Below, piece after piece: positions 7,138-64,000 of a stretch of 64,000 nucleotides of DNA. Made by a program: the position numbers and the translations under genes. The notes beneath the pieces are model-generated. The model was not told the origin of the DNA, did not search any database, and saw only the letters and a list, made by a program, of their open reading frames with translations. The DNA is from Candidatus Nomurabacteria bacterium (GTDB lineage: Bacteria; Patescibacteriota; Minisyncoccia; Phycocordibacterales; UBA9973), in NCBI GenBank assembly GCA_026395995.1, contig JAPLXQ010000006.1, forward strand, positions 18,983 to 82,982, in the 5' to 3' direction. The number at the start of each line of letters is the position of its first letter. The stretch's first letter is position 1.

Positions 7138-7322
7138 TTTAATCAAAAATTAAACTCCACTGTGGATGGAATTGAACTGTTAAATTTATGGATTTTTGGA
7201 GATAGGTATCTACTCCGAATTCCATTAATACAATTACTTCCAAGTGTTCACTGATTTCTGTACAATTTTCGATACCAACATAATAATATCGATTTTGTTT
7301 TTCTTCTTTTTGTAATGATTGC

Positions 7323-7481
7323 TCAAAAAAGAAGTATACATCCCAATCTTTTTTTTAGGAAAAGTCCGGCCATTCCGCAAATTCCATCACAAATCCCTTC
7401 AATTGGTAATTTATGTTCTGTCTTCTGTGCTTCACAATTAATACAAATTAAAGAAAATAAGGTAAAGATCACTTTTTTCAT
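7323..7481 (-). CDS. Small (52 aa) Cys-containing secreted-peptide candidate, absent from the supplied ORF track because it is under 60 aa: MKKVIFTLFSLICINCEAQKTEHKLPIEGICDGICGMAGLFLKKRLGCILLF
   Basis: ATG at 7481 and TGA at 7323 on the minus strand, translated by hand. Signal-peptide-like N-terminus, a GICDGICG motif and an amphipathic C-terminus. It sits in the ORF-free gap upstream of the YcaO locus. Confidence 0.3.
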   Translation of the reverse strand: MKKVIFTLFSLICINCEAQKTEHKLPIEGICDGICGMAGLFLKKRLGCILLF

Positions 7482-40372: not shown

Positions 40373-42783
<2,411 letters not shown>

Positions 42784-61814: not shown

Positions 61815-61841
61815 AATTAAATAAGATATGCACTTTTACTA

Positions 61842-61870
61842 TTGACATAAAACCTGTATCTTATATAATA
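61842..61870 (+). promoter_or_regulatory. Candidate sigma70 promoter TTGACA-N16-TATAAT upstream of the 61911 ORF
   Basis: Consensus hexamers read directly, about 40 nt before the ATG. Confidence 0.45.
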
Positions 61871-61910
61871 TAGGTTCTAGTAAATTGACAAACAATAAAA
61901 AACAGTAAAC

Positions 61911-62237
61911 ATGGCAAGTAAAAGCAGCAAAGCTGTTGGCAATAAACCAGCAGAAGAAACAAAAGTTACGGAAGTAAAAAATGTCCTTGAGGCAGCAGCA
62001 ATCAGACTGGATTCTGATAAATCCTTGGATTCTACTCCAATTGATGATAACCGTATTTTGGTTAGAATTGATAGAAAGTATATTTCAGGTAAAAACGAAA
62101 TCGGCAGGCACGCTGGTCACGCTGTGGTTAAAAAAACACCACTGACAAGTTTGCCCCCACAAAACATTGATCTGAATAAGATCCTGGCCAGTACACCAGA
62201 AAAAAGATACTCCGGAGCACCAGCAAGAAAATGGTAG
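61911..62237 (+). CDS. Hypothetical protein (108 aa), visibly GC-richer than the rest of the window
   Basis: ORF flanked by a consensus promoter and a perfect terminator; no motif recognised. Confidence 0.4.
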   Translation: MASKSSKAVGNKPAEETKVTEVKNVLEAAAIRLDSDKSLDSTPIDDNRILVRIDRKYISGKNEIGRHAGHAVVKKTPLTSLPPQNIDLNKILASTPEKRYSGAPARKW

Positions 62238-62240
62238 TTC

Positions 62241-62272
62241 CTAGCAGTCCCAAATCATCGGGACTGCTTTTT
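62241..62272 (+). terminator. Rho-independent terminator AGCAGTCCC aaatcatc GGGACTGCT + T7
   Basis: Perfect 9-bp stem and T-tract, read directly. Confidence 0.75.
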
Positions 62273-62377
62273 TTATTTAAAAATTCTGTGAGCTACAATA
62301 ATTTGTTCGTCGCCACTCACAAATTTTCCAGCCCCGGACTCAGCTATTTTTCTACTGAAAAATTATGCTTCCGTCTT

Positions 62378-62432
62378 CACAAAAGCGAAACAGACTAGAG
62401 TAGTCTAGTCTGTTTGAATTCGCGCTTTTGTG
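62378..62432. repeat. 21-bp nested perfect palindrome (CACAAAAGCG-AAACAGACTAG agtagt CTAGTCTGTTT-gaattc-CGCTTTTGTG) in a 290-bp non-coding spacer
   Basis: Outer 10-bp and inner 11-bp arms both perfect, read directly. No adjoining T-tract. Confidence 0.5.
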
Positions 62433-62528
62433 ACCCTAAGTAGTGCAAATTGGAACCTGATTGTATATCAAATAAAGAGTTTTCACTATTTGCGTGAAAA
62501 AATTGCCTTATAGTGATAGAATACATTT

Positions 62529-63221
62529 ATGCAACAATTAATAATGTTATTACCACCAGTAGATGATTTATTGTCTATGCAACCTGAGGAAATTGCACCT
62601 TTAGTATTACAATACGCTGAAACTCAACCACATTTAAATCGCTACAACTTCAGTATTCCTACAGCTGAAATCGAATCTTATGGACAAAGGAAGTCAAAAG
62701 AGGTTTATATGGTATTAATGGAAGCGTGGATGTGGTTAGAGGTAGAAGGATTTTTAGCTCCTCAGCCAGGAACTACTGATGGTTGGAGTTTTGTTACTCG
62801 TAAGGGAAAGAAAATTTTACAACAAAAAGATTTTAGTGCTTATCAAAAAGGCTCATTACTTCCATCAAGTGGACTTGACCCAGTTTTAGTTGAAAAAGTA
62901 AAACCTACTTTTATTAGAGGTGACTACGAAACAGCAGTATTCCAAGCCTTCCGTGAAGTTGAAGTTCGTGTAAGACTGAAAGCTGGATTGGCCGAAACTG
63001 ACATTGGTATTGAATTAATGAGTAAGGCCTTTAAAGCAAATACAGGGTTACTAACAGATAAAGTTGCTCCTGTACCTGAACAATTAGCAAAACATAATCT
63101 TTTTTCTGGAGCTATTGGTTTTCTTAAAAATCCTACCAGTCACAGAGTTGTATCTTACAACGATCCTAACGAAGTGGCAGACCTGATTCGATTTGCAAAT
63201 CAGTTGCTTAGACTTATCTAA
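62529..63221 (+). CDS. Hypothetical protein whose C-terminal half resembles the Ymh/TIGR02391 family (HEPN-related, defense-island associated)
   Basis: C-terminal GDYETAVFQAFREVEVRVRLKAG ... AFKANTGLL ... LFSGAIGFLKNPTSHR, which I recall as the Ymh pattern (...F-R/K-N-P-x-x-H). Recollection only, no search run. Confidence 0.4.
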   Translation: MQQLIMLLPPVDDLLSMQPEEIAPLVLQYAETQPHLNRYNFSIPTAEIESYGQRKSKEVYMVLMEAWMWLEVEGFLAPQPGTTDGWSFVTRKGKKILQQKDFSAYQKGSLLPSSGLDPVLVEKVKPTFIRGDYETAVFQAFREVEVRVRLKAGLAETDIGIELMSKAFKANTGLLTDKVAPVPEQLAKHNLFSGAIGFLKNPTSHRVVSYNDPNEVADLIRFANQLLRLI

Positions 63222-63273
63222 TCAAAAGTTCCAATTAACTATCCTCTGTGACCCTTATTAGAACTTCAAGAAG

Positions 63274-63978
63274 TTAAGGGAATTTAATATCTAAGAAAGA
63301 AATTAGTTGTATTGCTGAATCTATTCCTTCTGAGACTATTTGTAGTTCAATTGAAGATTCTTTTAGACCTTCGTGTATTATTTCATTGCGAATCTTCCTG
63401 AGTTTATCTATTTTTTCAATATAGCTTTTTTGTTTAGCATATTCTTTTTTTGAAATTGAAAGTGGAATTAGTAAATTAAGTGAAATAGACATTCCTATAT
63501 CTTTTTTAATATCTTTTATTTTATTTTGACTTACACCTTGTGCTATAAGTATTTTCTGAATTTTTTTGCCTAAAATAAACTCTATTATGATTGCTGATTC
63601 AATTGTGGCAATCCTTTTTTCATTCCATGCTGTTTTTTGTTTTAATCTTAATAATTCCTCAACTTCTTTGCTAGGTAAGATATTTTTATCTATAAATTTC
63701 TGTAAACCTTTCCATTTCTTAGGAGACACCAATTTATCCTCTTTAAATAAAGGATTTATTTCATTTGATCTAGGAATTTCAAAAGAAAAAATTTTCAGTG
63801 TACTCTTTTTAAGAGACCACTCTACTTTTTTAGATGAAAAGAAACTATTGTCAAAAAGCTCATGGAAATTTGAATTCATTTCAAAAATATTTTGTAAGTT
63901 GAGATTCATTCTTGCATATATAACAGCACGTCTCATGCTTTCGATATATATTTCATATATATATTTCGCTGTACGCAT
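63274..63978 (-). CDS. HEPN-motif protein (C-terminal R-x4-H: LRKIRNEIIHEG), putative RNase/abortive-infection-type protein
   Basis: RNEIIH fits the HEPN Rx4-6H catalytic motif at the C-terminal end. 234 aa, AT-rich. The upstream region runs off the window. Confidence 0.45.
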   Translation of the reverse strand: MRTAKYIYEIYIESMRRAVIYARMNLNLQNIFEMNSNFHELFDNSFFSSKKVEWSLKKSTLKIFSFEIPRSNEINPLFKEDKLVSPKKWKGLQKFIDKNILPSKEVEELLRLKQKTAWNEKRIATIESAIIIEFILGKKIQKILIAQGVSQNKIKDIKKDIGMSISLNLLIPLSISKKEYAKQKSYIEKIDKLRKIRNEIIHEGLKESSIELQIVSEGIDSAIQLISFLDIKFP

Positions 63979-64000
63979 TGTCTCATCTGAAGATTTTTTG

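What the first reader, a model, noticed from the sequence alone, without database searches (positions are those of the whole stretch)
61842..63978. Compositionally distinct terminal segment with a long nested palindrome and HEPN-type genes
From about 61.9 kb the DNA becomes visibly GC-richer. It contains a promoter- and terminator-bounded 108-aa unknown, a 290-bp spacer with a 21-bp nested perfect palindrome (62378-62432), a protein with a Ymh/TIGR02391-like C-terminus, and a convergent protein ending in the HEPN RNEIIH motif. HEPN and Ymh proteins are recurrent in abortive-infection and toxin-antitoxin islands. This looks like a small horizontally acquired defense module. The palindrome may be a recombination or attachment remnant or an operator.
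Basis: partly seen in the sequence, partly recalled or inferred. Interest (0 to 1): 0.55.

Follow-up and report, generated by a model that had tools for sequence, protein, structure and literature searches.

The report
Mobile element junction at tRNA-Glu
This stretch is where a 7.3-kb mobile element, carrying three predicted RNA-cutting (HEPN) toxin or defence genes, inserted into a tRNA-Glu gene of a Nomurabacteria (CPR) genome, and the "palindrome" is the host's own structured RNA that normally follows that tRNA.

Summary
The palindrome, the promoter- and terminator-bounded 108-aa ORF, the Ymh domain and the RNEIIH motif are all real. The "GC-richer, compositionally distinct" claim is not: the segment has GC 0.333, the same as the window.

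The segment is the left junction (attL) of a 7,280-bp integrative element. A large serine recombinase (LSR) inserted it into the 3' end of tRNA-Glu(CTC). A public contig that is 100% identical over the last 1,564 bases extends the window. It shows the rest of the element: a third HEPN-fold gene, a small nuclease-like ORF, a response regulator, a LOOT RNA, a rolling-circle Rep, the LSR and the regenerated tRNA.

Nine metagenome contigs carry the empty site, and another carries a different LSR element at the same nucleotide.

The palindrome is host DNA. It forms the first two helices of a roughly 190-nt structured RNA that abuts tRNA-Glu in relatives. That RNA shows strong covariation and matches no Rfam family.

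Ymh and the convergent HEPN gene are element cargo. They are not a conserved pair and match no catalogued defence system. An RNase toxin or abortive-infection role is inferred, not shown.

The parts
61842..61869 (+). Consensus sigma-70-type promoter of orf108 (TTGACA-16-TATAAT). Host side of the junction.
   Evidence: 12 of 12 hexamer positions match.
61911..62237 (+). orf108, a 108-aa unknown protein with GC 0.407. It lies on the host side of the junction but in a variable zone between rmuC and the tRNA-Glu trailer.
   Evidence: Searches give no family hit. One search finds it absent from all 80 related rmuC loci. One search finds it only in the same sample's assembly.
62243..62275 (+). Intrinsic terminator of orf108: a 9-bp stem with 6 GC pairs, followed by T7.
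62252..62438 (-). Structured 'trailer' RNA that normally abuts the 3' end of tRNA-Glu. It has seven helices and is cut off from its tRNA here. The 3'-most helix of relatives is absent and is replaced by the orf108 terminator.
   Evidence: CM R1 scores 148 bits, E 8e-37. Alignments A2 and A5 show 25/41 and 36/41 pairs with compensatory changes, and 96% of cells paired against about 40% when partners are slid. No Rfam match.
62377..62433 (.). The nested palindrome (11-bp outer and 12-bp inner perfect arms, 7-nt bulge). It forms helices 1 and 2 of the trailer RNA. The arm at 62423-62433 lies within 15 bp of the crossover, so it is probably part of the attB half-site.
62430..62438 (-). Displaced original 3' end of tRNA-Glu (TAGGGTCAC on the tRNA strand): the acceptor-stem 3' strand, the discriminator and the first trailer base.
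   Evidence: The right half of attL is identical (26/26) to the right half of the empty site in L096.
62436..62438 (.). Common core CTA (TAG on the tRNA strand). It is shared by attL, attR and attB, and the strand exchange must have occurred within it.
   Evidence: The flanking bases differ between attL and attR on both sides of the trinucleotide.
62439..64000 (.). Left arm (first 1,562 bp) of a 7,280-bp integrative element. The element continues beyond the window to L001 position 7282.
   Evidence: L001 is 100% identical over 1,564 bp.
62529..63221 (+). 230-aa protein with a conserved but unclassified N-terminal domain (residues 1-110) and a Ymh-type HEPN domain (115-230). First cargo gene.
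   Evidence: One search finds more than 341 homologues covering 97-100% of the length, so the 230-aa start is right and NCBI's 170-aa call is short.
63126..63143 (+). K200-N-P-T-S-H205, at the position of the HEPN Rx4H motif. It has Lys instead of Arg, and this is invariant in the subfamily.
   Evidence: K 118/118, N 118/118, H 117/118.
63274..64000 (-). C-terminal 242 codons of a 318-aa HEPN-type protein (NCBI locus tag NT068_01365). The start codon is 230 bp beyond the window end. It is the last gene of a leftward operon.
63373..63390 (-). R281-N-E-I-I-H286, the Rx4H motif.
   Evidence: Invariant in 8 close and 43 distant family members.

Best explanation
SHOWN BY COMPARISON
- Window position 62438/62439 is the left junction (attL) of a 7,280-bp integrative element in a Candidatus Nomurabacteria (Patescibacteria) chromosome.
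- Before integration the host carried, convergent with rmuC-orf108, a tRNA-Glu(CTC) gene followed directly by a roughly 190-nt structured trailer RNA. The first two helices of that RNA are the 'nested palindrome'.
- The element's large serine recombinase (LSR) exchanged strands within a TAG trinucleotide, 9 nt from the end of the tRNA.
- The trailer, with the last 6 tRNA nucleotides, stayed at the left end (window 62252-62438, minus strand).
- The body of the tRNA now lies 7.28 kb to the right. It is completed by an element-supplied 3' end, AGTCACCA.

GENE ORDER OF THE ELEMENT, FROM attL
1. Ymh-HEPN protein (+)
2. 318-aa HEPN protein (-)
3. 243-aa HEPN-fold protein (-)
4. 158-aa PD-(D/E)XK-like ORF (-)
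5. receiver-domain protein (-)
6. LOOT RNA (-)
7. 302-aa unknown (+)
8. rolling-circle plasmid-type Rep (+)
9. 61-aa ORF (+)
10. LSR (+), whose ORF runs across attR into the tRNA

INFERRED
- The element is an integrating small rolling-circle replicon.
They encode HEPN-type RNases with different N-terminal sensor domains.
- When triggered, for example by phage infection or loss of the element, they would cleave cellular RNA. This is abortive infection or addiction.
For: EXTENSION OF THE WINDOW
- Logan contig L001 is 100% identical over 1,564 nt.
- The same gene order appears in a second sample (L102).
- NCBI locus tags NT068_01365 and NT068_01370 lie on an 89.5-kb MAG contig.

HOST AND HOT SPOT
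- RmuC is 79-89% identical to 80 Patescibacteria MAG loci.
- tRNA-Glu(CTC) lies within 10 kb downstream of rmuC in 37 of 41 loci scanned.
- None of the 80 loci has any cargo gene, but 5 have an LSR next to or overlapping that tRNA.

ELEMENT ENDS
- tRNA-Glu(CTC) lies at L001 7272-7346(-) and overlaps the LSR stop codon.
- The LSR has the Resolvase, Recombinase and Zn_ribbon_recom domains and matches PHROG integrase at 1.8e-89.
- The left half of attR matches attB at 25/26 positions. The right half of attL matches attB at 26/26. The shared core is TAG.

EMPTY AND OCCUPIED SITES
- Eleven metagenome contigs contain TTCGCGCTTTTGTGACCCTA. In nine it runs straight into an intact tRNA-Glu.
- L098 has an unrelated 6.4-kb element at the same nucleotide. 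Its LSR is 35% identical and it has the same layout.

PALINDROME AS RNA
- The stems covary and the loop CTRC is conserved.
- G-U pairs place the RNA on the tRNA strand.

HEPN CARGO
- Ymh is above the curated cutoffs and is listed as a HEPN family (PMC3710099).
- In the 318-aa protein, R281, N282 and H286 are invariant across 43 distant relatives. Nine of those hit HEPN_RiboL-PSP (best E 2e-6), and others hit DUF4145, HEPN or Swt1-HEPN.
- hhalign against the Ymh family puts RNxxxH on KNPxSH.
- Sampled Ymh homologues sit next to an MmeI-type R-M enzyme (L107) and next to an LSR (L110).
- A p243 homologue sits next to an LSR and a TIR/SEFIR protein.

REP
- PF23343 at 1e-19. It is 31-41% identical to Reps of 1.5-7.5-kb Firmicutes plasmids.
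Against: - No excised circle (attP) was found. The only test was an exact-match scan of viral contigs, so current mobility is unproven.
- No relative of the Rep or the LSR is present in IMG/VR.
- The Ymh subfamily has Lys, not Arg, at the catalytic position.
- No antitoxin-like partner (MNT) and no known defence system were detected.
- Nothing here demonstrates RNase activity or a phage-related phenotype.
- One sampled Ymh homologue sits among ordinary genes.
Confidence: 0.8

Rival explanations
1. The palindrome is element DNA: a replication origin for the rolling-circle Rep, an operator for the Ymh gene, or the recombinase's own site.
For: It lies in a non-coding spacer 96 bp upstream of the Ymh gene. 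Hairpins are typical of rolling-circle origins. A Rep is present.
Against: The same hairpin, with the same flanking 9 nt, follows intact tRNA-Glu genes in nine contigs that lack the element and in nine related genomes. Its stems covary as an RNA on the opposite strand. It lies to the left of the attL crossover.
Confidence: 0.03
2. Ymh and the convergent HEPN protein, with or without p243, form one dedicated multi-gene toxin-antitoxin or abortive-infection system that travels as a unit.
For: Three HEPN-type genes are adjacent. The p243 stop and the HEPN318 start are one base apart. HEPN domains act as dimers (general knowledge of the family).
Against: The closest homologues of each gene have different neighbours:
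- The Ymh homologue at 89% identity follows a peptidase M1 gene.
- The HEPN318 homologue at 81% identity lies between a membrane protein and FtsH.
- p243 homologues lie in other islands.
None of the three is in any of 80 related loci. PADLOC gives no system.
Confidence: 0.15
3. The element is a fixed fossil. It integrated once and no longer excises or replicates, and its HEPN genes are neutral passengers or have been recruited for ordinary RNA processing.
For: No attP junction was found. Composition is fully ameliorated to the host. Degenerate LSR fragments at the same site in L007 and L061 show that such elements do decay.
Against: All ORFs are intact, including a 503-515-aa LSR and the Rep. 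The displaced trailer still matches the family model over its whole length (148 bits). The right half of attL is identical to an empty site. Ameliorated composition may simply mean that the element circulates within this low-GC clade.
Confidence: 0.25
4. The palindrome is nothing more than the intrinsic terminator of tRNA-Glu.
For: In L019, L030 and L079 the inner hairpin is flanked by an A-run and a T-run, like a bidirectional terminator.
Against: Conservation and covariation continue for about 130 nt beyond it, through four to five more helices. In L100 the structure lies between tRNA-Glu and tRNA-Ser inside a tRNA cluster. In the window's copy the hairpin is not followed by a clean U-run.
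Confidence: 0.15

Closest known systems
Integrative elements and prophages that use a large serine recombinase (phiC31, Bxb1, TP901-1 integrases; ccr of SCCmec; TndX). Recalled from general knowledge; the domain test was run here.
   Same: The Resolvase-Recombinase-Zn-ribbon architecture is present. The att sites share only a very short core (3 nt here) with no long direct repeats. The integrase gene sits at the element end.
   Different: The target is the 3' end of a tRNA gene, and the element replaces the tRNA tail. That habit is typical of tyrosine integrases. The LSR reading frame crosses attP/attR, so its last 5 residues are tRNA-encoded when integrated, and a different 24-residue tail is predicted in the circle. 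The host is a CPR bacterium.
Integrating rolling-circle replicons such as pSAM2-type AICEs of actinomycetes (recalled from memory, not tested).
   Same: A small element combines a rolling-circle Rep with a site-specific integrase and inserts into a tRNA gene.
   Different: The integrase here is a serine, not a tyrosine, recombinase. The Rep belongs to the REP_ORF2-G2P / small Firmicutes plasmid type, with only a 14-bit trace of RepSA. No FtsK-like transfer gene was seen.
Ymh (PF09509 / TIGR02391) family of the HEPN superfamily (Anantharaman et al. 2013, PMC3710099).
   Same: The C-terminal 116 residues match both curated models above cutoff. As described for the family, homologues occur as solos near R-M systems.
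   Different: This subfamily has an invariant Lys in place of the motif Arg (KNPxSH). It also has a conserved N-terminal domain of about 110 aa that matches no Pfam family, including the AbiJ-NTD and AbiTii models.
RiboL-PSP-HEPN (PF18735) and single-gene HEPN abortive-infection proteins (AbiD/F/J/U2/V).
   Same: It has an Rx4H motif inside a C-terminal helical domain and an N-terminal non-catalytic domain. It occurs as a solo gene on a mobile element. The best, sub-threshold, Pfam match is PF18735, and relatives reach E 2e-6.
   Different: The match is below the gathering score (18-19 bits against 28.4). There is no L-PSP domain and no ParB neighbour. Word-based search finds only 8 relatives in 5.8 billion proteins. 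Exhaustive profile search finds 327 cluster representatives.
LOOT RNA (Rfam RF03000, listed as an sRNA of unknown function).
   Same: It scores 83 bits against a gathering score of 46.4 at L001 3494-3611(-).
   Different: Here it has a context. It recurs inside tRNA-Glu-integrating LSR elements (L098, L051, L026) and in an island with a p243 homologue (L103). In this element and in L098 it points away from the integrase and precedes the cargo genes.
Functional tRNA 3' external transcribed spacers such as 3'ETS-leuZ of E. coli (recalled from memory, not tested).
   Same: It is a conserved RNA segment directly downstream of a tRNA in the same transcript orientation.
   Different: It is much larger and more structured (seven helices, about 190 nt). 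Its first helix pairs with the last four nucleotides of the tRNA region (UCAC/GUGA). No function is known.

Membership tests
Ymh / TIGR02391 (HEPN superfamily) | Match to the curated family profiles above their cutoffs | tested here: met
   PF09509 scores 74.8 bits (cutoff 25), E 6.6e-21, residues 115-230. TIGR02391 scores 60 bits (cutoff 39.45).
Ymh / TIGR02391 (HEPN superfamily) | Conserved Rx4-6H catalytic motif (stated as conserved for Ymh in PMC3710099) | tested here: not met
   The motif position reads K200-N-P-T-S-H205. Lys is invariant in 118 of 118 subfamily members. The His is kept. Whether Lys supports catalysis is unknown.
HEPN superfamily (318-aa protein, window 63274-64000 and beyond) | Conserved Rx4-6H motif | tested here: met
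   R281, N282 and H286 are invariant in 8 close and 43 distant homologues.
HEPN superfamily (318-aa protein) | Significant match to a curated HEPN family model | tested here: not met
   HEPN_RiboL-PSP scores 18-19 bits against a cutoff of 28.4. Support is indirect: 9 of 43 distant relatives hit it (best E 2e-6), and hhalign against Ymh gives E 0.024 with the motifs in register.
HEPN superfamily (318-aa protein) | All-alpha HEPN fold | tested here: inconclusive
HEPN superfamily (243-aa protein, L001 1796-2527, outside the window) | Rx4-6H motif and HEPN fold | tested here: met
MNT-HEPN type II toxin-antitoxin | An adjacent minimal nucleotidyltransferase antitoxin gene | tested here: not met
   No nucleotidyltransferase domain is found in any ORF of the element.
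Catalogued anti-phage defence systems (PADLOC-DB v2) | Significant match of the component proteins to a system model | tested here: not met
   Only weak hits were found: PD-Lambda-3_B at 5e-4, Csx1 HEPN at 3e-4 and PD-T4-6 at 0.011.
Large-serine-recombinase integrative element | Recombinase with Resolvase, Recombinase and Zn-ribbon domains at the element end | tested here: met
   E-values are 2.8e-31, 2.3e-14 and 3.7e-6. PHROG 95 integrase matches at 1.8e-89.
Large-serine-recombinase integrative element | attL and attR are reciprocal hybrids of an attB seen unoccupied elsewhere, with a short common core | tested here: met
   Half-site identities to attB are 26/26 and 25/26. The core is TAG. 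There are nine empty sites and one differently occupied site.
Large-serine-recombinase integrative element | Excision to a circular form carrying attP | tested here: inconclusive
   The inferred attP 22-mer is absent from IMG/VR. The source read sets could not be searched.
Rolling-circle replicon | HUH-type Rep of a known family | tested here: met
   PF23343 at 1.1e-19, PHROG 3419 at 1.4e-21, and 31-41% identity to small-plasmid Reps. The origin (nick site) was not identified.
Intrinsic terminator (for the palindrome) | G+C-rich hairpin followed by a U-run on the transcribed strand | tested here: inconclusive
   On the tRNA strand the window's inner hairpin is followed by UUUCGCUUUUGUG, which is itself the 3' arm of the outer helix. 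Relatives L019 and L079 have clean A and T runs.
Any Rfam 15 family (for the trailer RNA) | Covariance-model match | tested here: not met
   Nothing was found at gathering score. In the permissive scan of 62150-62560 the best match had E above 1.

The most novel reading that the evidence does not exclude
The palindrome belongs to an undescribed class of roughly 190-nt structured RNA fused to the 3' end of tRNA-Glu in one clade of Paceibacteria, with weaker paralogues near tRNA-Val. Its first helix sequesters the tRNA's 3' terminus and at the same time forms half of the attB site used by a family of tRNA-Glu-specific large serine recombinases. The elements those recombinases carry share an orphan RNA, LOOT, placed upstream of their variable cargo (here three HEPN genes). 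Two orphan RNAs would then be tied to the biology of mobile elements in CPR bacteria, and the recombinase's C-terminal tail would switch between integrated and excised states.
Probability: 0.5. Interest if true: 0.65.

Novelty: new member of a known kind. Interest (0 to 1): 0.45.

Why it matters
Mobile elements and defence genes of CPR/Patescibacteria are poorly charted. This locus gives a nucleotide-exact integration site with empty, occupied and differently occupied versions. It therefore offers a ready-made attB/attP pair for a new clade of large serine recombinases, enzymes that are sought as genome-engineering tools.

It also adds two small, unclassified HEPN families as candidate RNase toxins. 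It gives the orphan LOOT RNA a genomic context. It exposes a covariation-supported structured RNA next to tRNA-Glu that is not in Rfam.

The lesson for the scan is that composition was misleading here.

Tried and rejected
- A direct-repeat or k-mer search for a displaced tRNA fragment at the left end found nothing. The displaced piece is only 9 nt and differs by one base from the element-supplied copy. The junction was found instead through the outer-arm decamer, which turned up next to tRNA-Glu in L037.
- The palindrome core is not in IMG/VR, and the window holds no second copy.
- A permissive Rfam scan of the spacer returned only chance-level hits.
- CM R1 found no further trailer copies in the other 71 related loci, so the RNA is restricted to one clade.
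- Exact look-ups of RmuC and of NCBI's 318-aa HEPN sequence in the contig index failed.
- A profile of the HEPN318 family against PDB sequences gave nothing meaningful. Foldseek against the PDB gave nothing. The afdb50 library was unavailable.
- The Rep and the LSR have no close relatives in IMG/VR. The attP 22-mer is not in IMG/VR.
- The LOOT motif is not discussed in the main text of Weinberg et al. 2017, and no supplement text is held.
- BLASTP between the LSR elements showed that only the recombinase is shared, so there is no conserved protein cargo.
- I considered that an inversion placed the tRNA far from rmuC. This is not needed, because several relatives also have the tRNA convergent with rmuC.
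Full report
1. WHAT IS IN THE SEQUENCE

orf108 (61911-62237) has a perfect TTGACA-16-TATAAT promoter at 61842-61869. It has a strong terminator at 62243-62268 followed by T7.

The 291-bp spacer contains a nested inverted repeat. The outer arms are 11 bp (62377-62387 / 62423-62433). The inner arms are 12 bp (62388-62399 / 62404-62415). Both are perfect, and a one-sided 7-nt bulge lies between them. The fold z-score is -6.8, and the window holds no other copy.

The 230-aa ORF at 62529-63221 matches Hypoth_Ymh (74.8 bits, cutoff 25) and TIGR02391 (60 bits, cutoff 39.45) over residues 115-230. The convergent ORF has RNEIIH at 63373-63390.

The composition claim fails. The segment's GC is 0.333 against a window mean of 0.333, which is the 53rd percentile. 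Only orf108 (0.407) is GC-richer, and the HEPN gene is AT-richer. The window's real GC outlier, at 40-45 kb, is the F-type ATP synthase operon.

2. EXTENDING THE WINDOW

The convergent ORF runs off the window end. An exact-protein look-up of the Ymh protein returned a 7,985-nt public contig, L001. It starts at window position 62437 and is identical over the 1,564 overlapping bases. A second sample shows the same gene order (L102).

The genes downstream of the Ymh gene are, in order:
- a 318-aa HEPN-type protein (start fixed by homologues)
- a 243-aa protein whose stop lies one base from the HEPN start
- a 158-aa ORF with weak PD-(D/E)XK and TnsA-N hits
- a 128-aa receiver-domain protein
- a LOOT RNA (RF03000, 83 bits against a gathering score of 46.4)
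- a 302-aa unknown
- a REP_ORF2-G2P rolling-circle Rep, 31-41% identical to Reps of 1.5-7.5-kb Firmicutes plasmids
- a 61-aa ORF
- a 503-515-aa large serine recombinase with the Resolvase, Recombinase and Zn-ribbon domains
- a tRNA-Glu(CTC) on the minus strand that overlaps the recombinase stop codon

3. HOST AND HOT SPOT

RmuC, just upstream of the finding, is 79-89% identical to proteins in 80 Nomurabacteria, Paceibacteria and Patescibacteria MAG loci. In these loci YqeY-ExoX-RmuC synteny is conserved. A tRNA-Glu(CTC) lies within 10 kb downstream of rmuC in 37 of 41 loci scanned.

None of the 80 loci contains orf108, Ymh, either HEPN protein, the Rep or the other cargo. Five have a large serine recombinase next to or overlapping the 3' end of that tRNA. 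The tRNA-Glu is therefore a recurrent integration target.

4. WHAT THE PALINDROME IS

The outer-arm decamer CACAAAAGCG occurs twice, inverted, immediately after tRNA-Glu in relative L037. I extracted the sequence downstream of tRNA-Glu in all loci. Nine relatives carry, flush with the tRNA's 3' end, a sequence homologous to the reverse complement of window 62252-62441.

RNAalifold predicts seven helices and 41 pairs. Twenty-five pairs show compensatory double changes in 10 sequences. With 25 sequences, 36 of 41 pairs do. About 96% of cells are paired, against about 40% when the partners are slid. No shuffle out of 500 reaches the observed values.

Helices 1 and 2 are the palindrome. The stem sequences differ between species while the loop (CTRC) and the pairing are kept. 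G-U pairs put the RNA on the tRNA strand, which is the window's minus strand. Helix 1 begins with the last bases of the tRNA region (UCAC pairs with GUGA).

No Rfam family matches. The covariance model finds it only in this clade. It also finds weaker paralogues near tRNA-Val and one tandem copy.

5. THE JUNCTION

Written on the tRNA strand, the four sites are:

attB (L096, empty): ...gttcgattctctg TAG ggtcacaaaagcgcgaattc...
attR (here): ...gttcgattctctg TAG agtcaccaacgaagaagg...
attL (here): ...aatttgcactact TAG ggtcacaaaagcgcgaattc...

The left half of attR matches attB at 25 of 26 positions. The right half of attL matches attB at 26 of 26. The bases on either side of TAG differ between attL and attR, so the exchange happened inside that trinucleotide. 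This fits the 2-nt staggered cut of serine recombinases, which is established knowledge of that family.

A scan of metagenome contigs for the 20-mer spanning the hairpin arm and the displaced tail found 11 contigs. In nine of them the 20-mer runs straight into an intact tRNA-Glu (CTC or TTC), so these are empty sites. In L098 a different 6.4-kb element is inserted at the same nucleotide. It has the same layout and an LSR that is 35% identical. L095 has a variant junction 6 nt further on.

The element therefore spans window 62439 to L001 7282, a length of 7,280 bp. Only its first 1,562 bp are in the window. orf108, its terminator, the trailer RNA and the palindrome lie on the host side of the junction.

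6. COMPOSITION OF THE WHOLE ELEMENT

The element's GC is 0.329 against 0.334 for the host. Its tetranucleotide distance is at the 76th percentile of host windows. No gene has a GC or GC3 z-score above 1.6 in magnitude. The element cannot be detected by composition.

7. THE CARGO

Ymh is a recognised HEPN family. It is found as solos and in R-M neighbourhoods (PMC3710099). The window's protein belongs to a widespread subfamily of about 240 aa, with more than 341 homologues across several phyla at full-length coverage. This subfamily has an unclassified N-terminal domain and an invariant KNPxSH motif, with Lys where HEPN proteins have Arg.

The 318-aa protein is rare by word-based search, with 8 relatives. 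An exhaustive profile search finds 327 cluster representatives. About 55 of these score at E 1e-30 or better and are mostly full length. The rest share only the C-terminal domain.

R281, N282 and H286 are invariant in a 43-member sample. Nine members hit HEPN_RiboL-PSP (best E 2e-6), and others hit DUF4145, HEPN or Swt1-HEPN. The query itself stays below the Pfam cutoff.

They are not a conserved unit. Each gene's closest homologues have other neighbours. Several of those neighbourhoods are defence-like or mobile:
- an MmeI-type R-M enzyme next to a Ymh homologue
- LSRs next to Ymh and p243 homologues
- a TIR/SEFIR protein near a p243 homologue

PADLOC recognises no system.

8. MECHANISM AND ITS STATUS

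The integration history is shown by comparison. The following points are inferred. The element is an integrating rolling-circle replicon. The HEPN proteins are RNases held inactive until a trigger, and they act as single-gene abortive-infection or addiction functions. RNase activity, the trigger and present-day excision are all untested. The Lys-for-Arg change in Ymh and the sub-threshold family scores are real caveats.

9. OTHER ELEMENTS AT THE SAME SITE

BLASTP between the LSR elements found at tRNA-Glu (this one, L098, L051, L026, L028, L007 and L061) shows that only the recombinase is shared. LOOT RNA, however, recurs in four of them and in an island with a p243 homologue.

In this element and in L098, LOOT points away from the recombinase and precedes a PD-(D/E)XK-like ORF and the cargo. 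LOOT may therefore be the leader or first gene of the cargo operon. In both elements the recombinase ORF crosses attR. Here the integrated protein ends ...LVTLQRIEL, with the last five residues and the stop codon read from tRNA DNA. The predicted circular form ends with a different 24-residue tail and is 534 aa long.

10. VERDICT

The locus is an ordinary kind of thing, an integrase-borne island with toxin-like cargo, in an unusual host, and it has an unusually clean junction. It also turned up two items worth follow-up: an undescribed structured RNA attached to tRNA-Glu, and a genomic context for LOOT RNA.

Noticed in passing
L001 3494-3611 (-), 3.9 kb beyond the window end. Also L098 5205-5330, L051 15577-15706, L026 14771-14891 and L103 643-764.: LOOT RNA (RF03000, an orphan 'sRNA') scores 61-85 bits inside tRNA-Glu-integrating serine-recombinase elements. 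In this element and in L098 it points away from the integrase and sits upstream of a PD-(D/E)XK-like ORF and the cargo genes, like an operon leader.
   Followed up: partly
window 62252-62438 (-). Relatives include L049 11517-11715, L020 11639-11838 and L094 3617-3822.: A covariation-supported RNA of about 190 nt and seven helices lies directly 3' of tRNA-Glu (CTC or TTC). It is absent from Rfam 15 and restricted to one Paceibacteria clade. Weaker paralogues lie near tRNA-Val (L093 4413-4581, L098 192-372), and L095 has a tandem second copy (1261-1408). Its function is unknown.
   Followed up: partly
L001 5753-7300 (LSR) and 7272-7346 (tRNA-Glu). L098 2442-3983 and 2408-2481.: The recombinase reading frame crosses the crossover point. 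The integrated form ends in five tRNA-encoded residues (QRIEL). The predicted excised form would carry a different 24-residue tail and be 534 aa long. The distantly related LSR in L098 has the same overlap.
   Followed up: partly
L098 2470-8848: A second, unrelated-cargo 6.4-kb element occupies exactly the same nucleotide of tRNA-Glu in another metagenome. It is bounded by the regenerated tRNA and the displaced trailer. Its cargo includes several small membrane proteins and a second, 130-aa resolvase-like ORF.
   Followed up: partly
window 62437 (start of Logan contig L001) and 62343 (end of Logan contig L002): The independent short-read assembly of the same sample breaks within one base of the att core and again 94 bp to the left, so the trailer is left as an unplaced piece. 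This would fit co-existing strains with different flanks (empty or occupied sites), but it could also be an assembly accident.
   Followed up: no
window 62529-63221: NCBI's annotation of this gene is a 170-aa product (P0011). More than 100 homologues align over the full 230 aa, so the upstream ATG at 62529 is the likely start. An extended -10 (TGATAGAAT, 62514-62522) ends 7 nt before it, and no Shine-Dalgarno sequence is present, which suggests a leaderless mRNA.
   Followed up: partly
window 41808-42783 (-): The ATP synthase gamma subunit is split into two overlapping ORFs: 162 aa covering profile positions 1-137 and 192 aa covering 141-284. This could be a frameshift, a sequencing error or programmed. 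The operon at 40.4-46.9 kb is the window's only real GC outlier (0.39-0.49).
   Followed up: no
window 61815-62300, compared with L037 11054-12290: The zone between rmuC and the tRNA-Glu unit is variable between species. It holds different small ORFs bounded by strong promoters and terminators: orf108 here, and 182-aa and 67-aa ORFs in L037. The 3'-most helix of the trailer RNA is missing here and is replaced by the orf108 terminator, which marks a rearrangement breakpoint near 62262-62285.
   Followed up: no
L007 11385-12434 and L061 11151-12430: Truncated or split serine-recombinase ORFs lie next to tRNA-Glu genes that encode CCA or CC ends. These look like decayed remnants of earlier integrations at the same site.
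   Followed up: no
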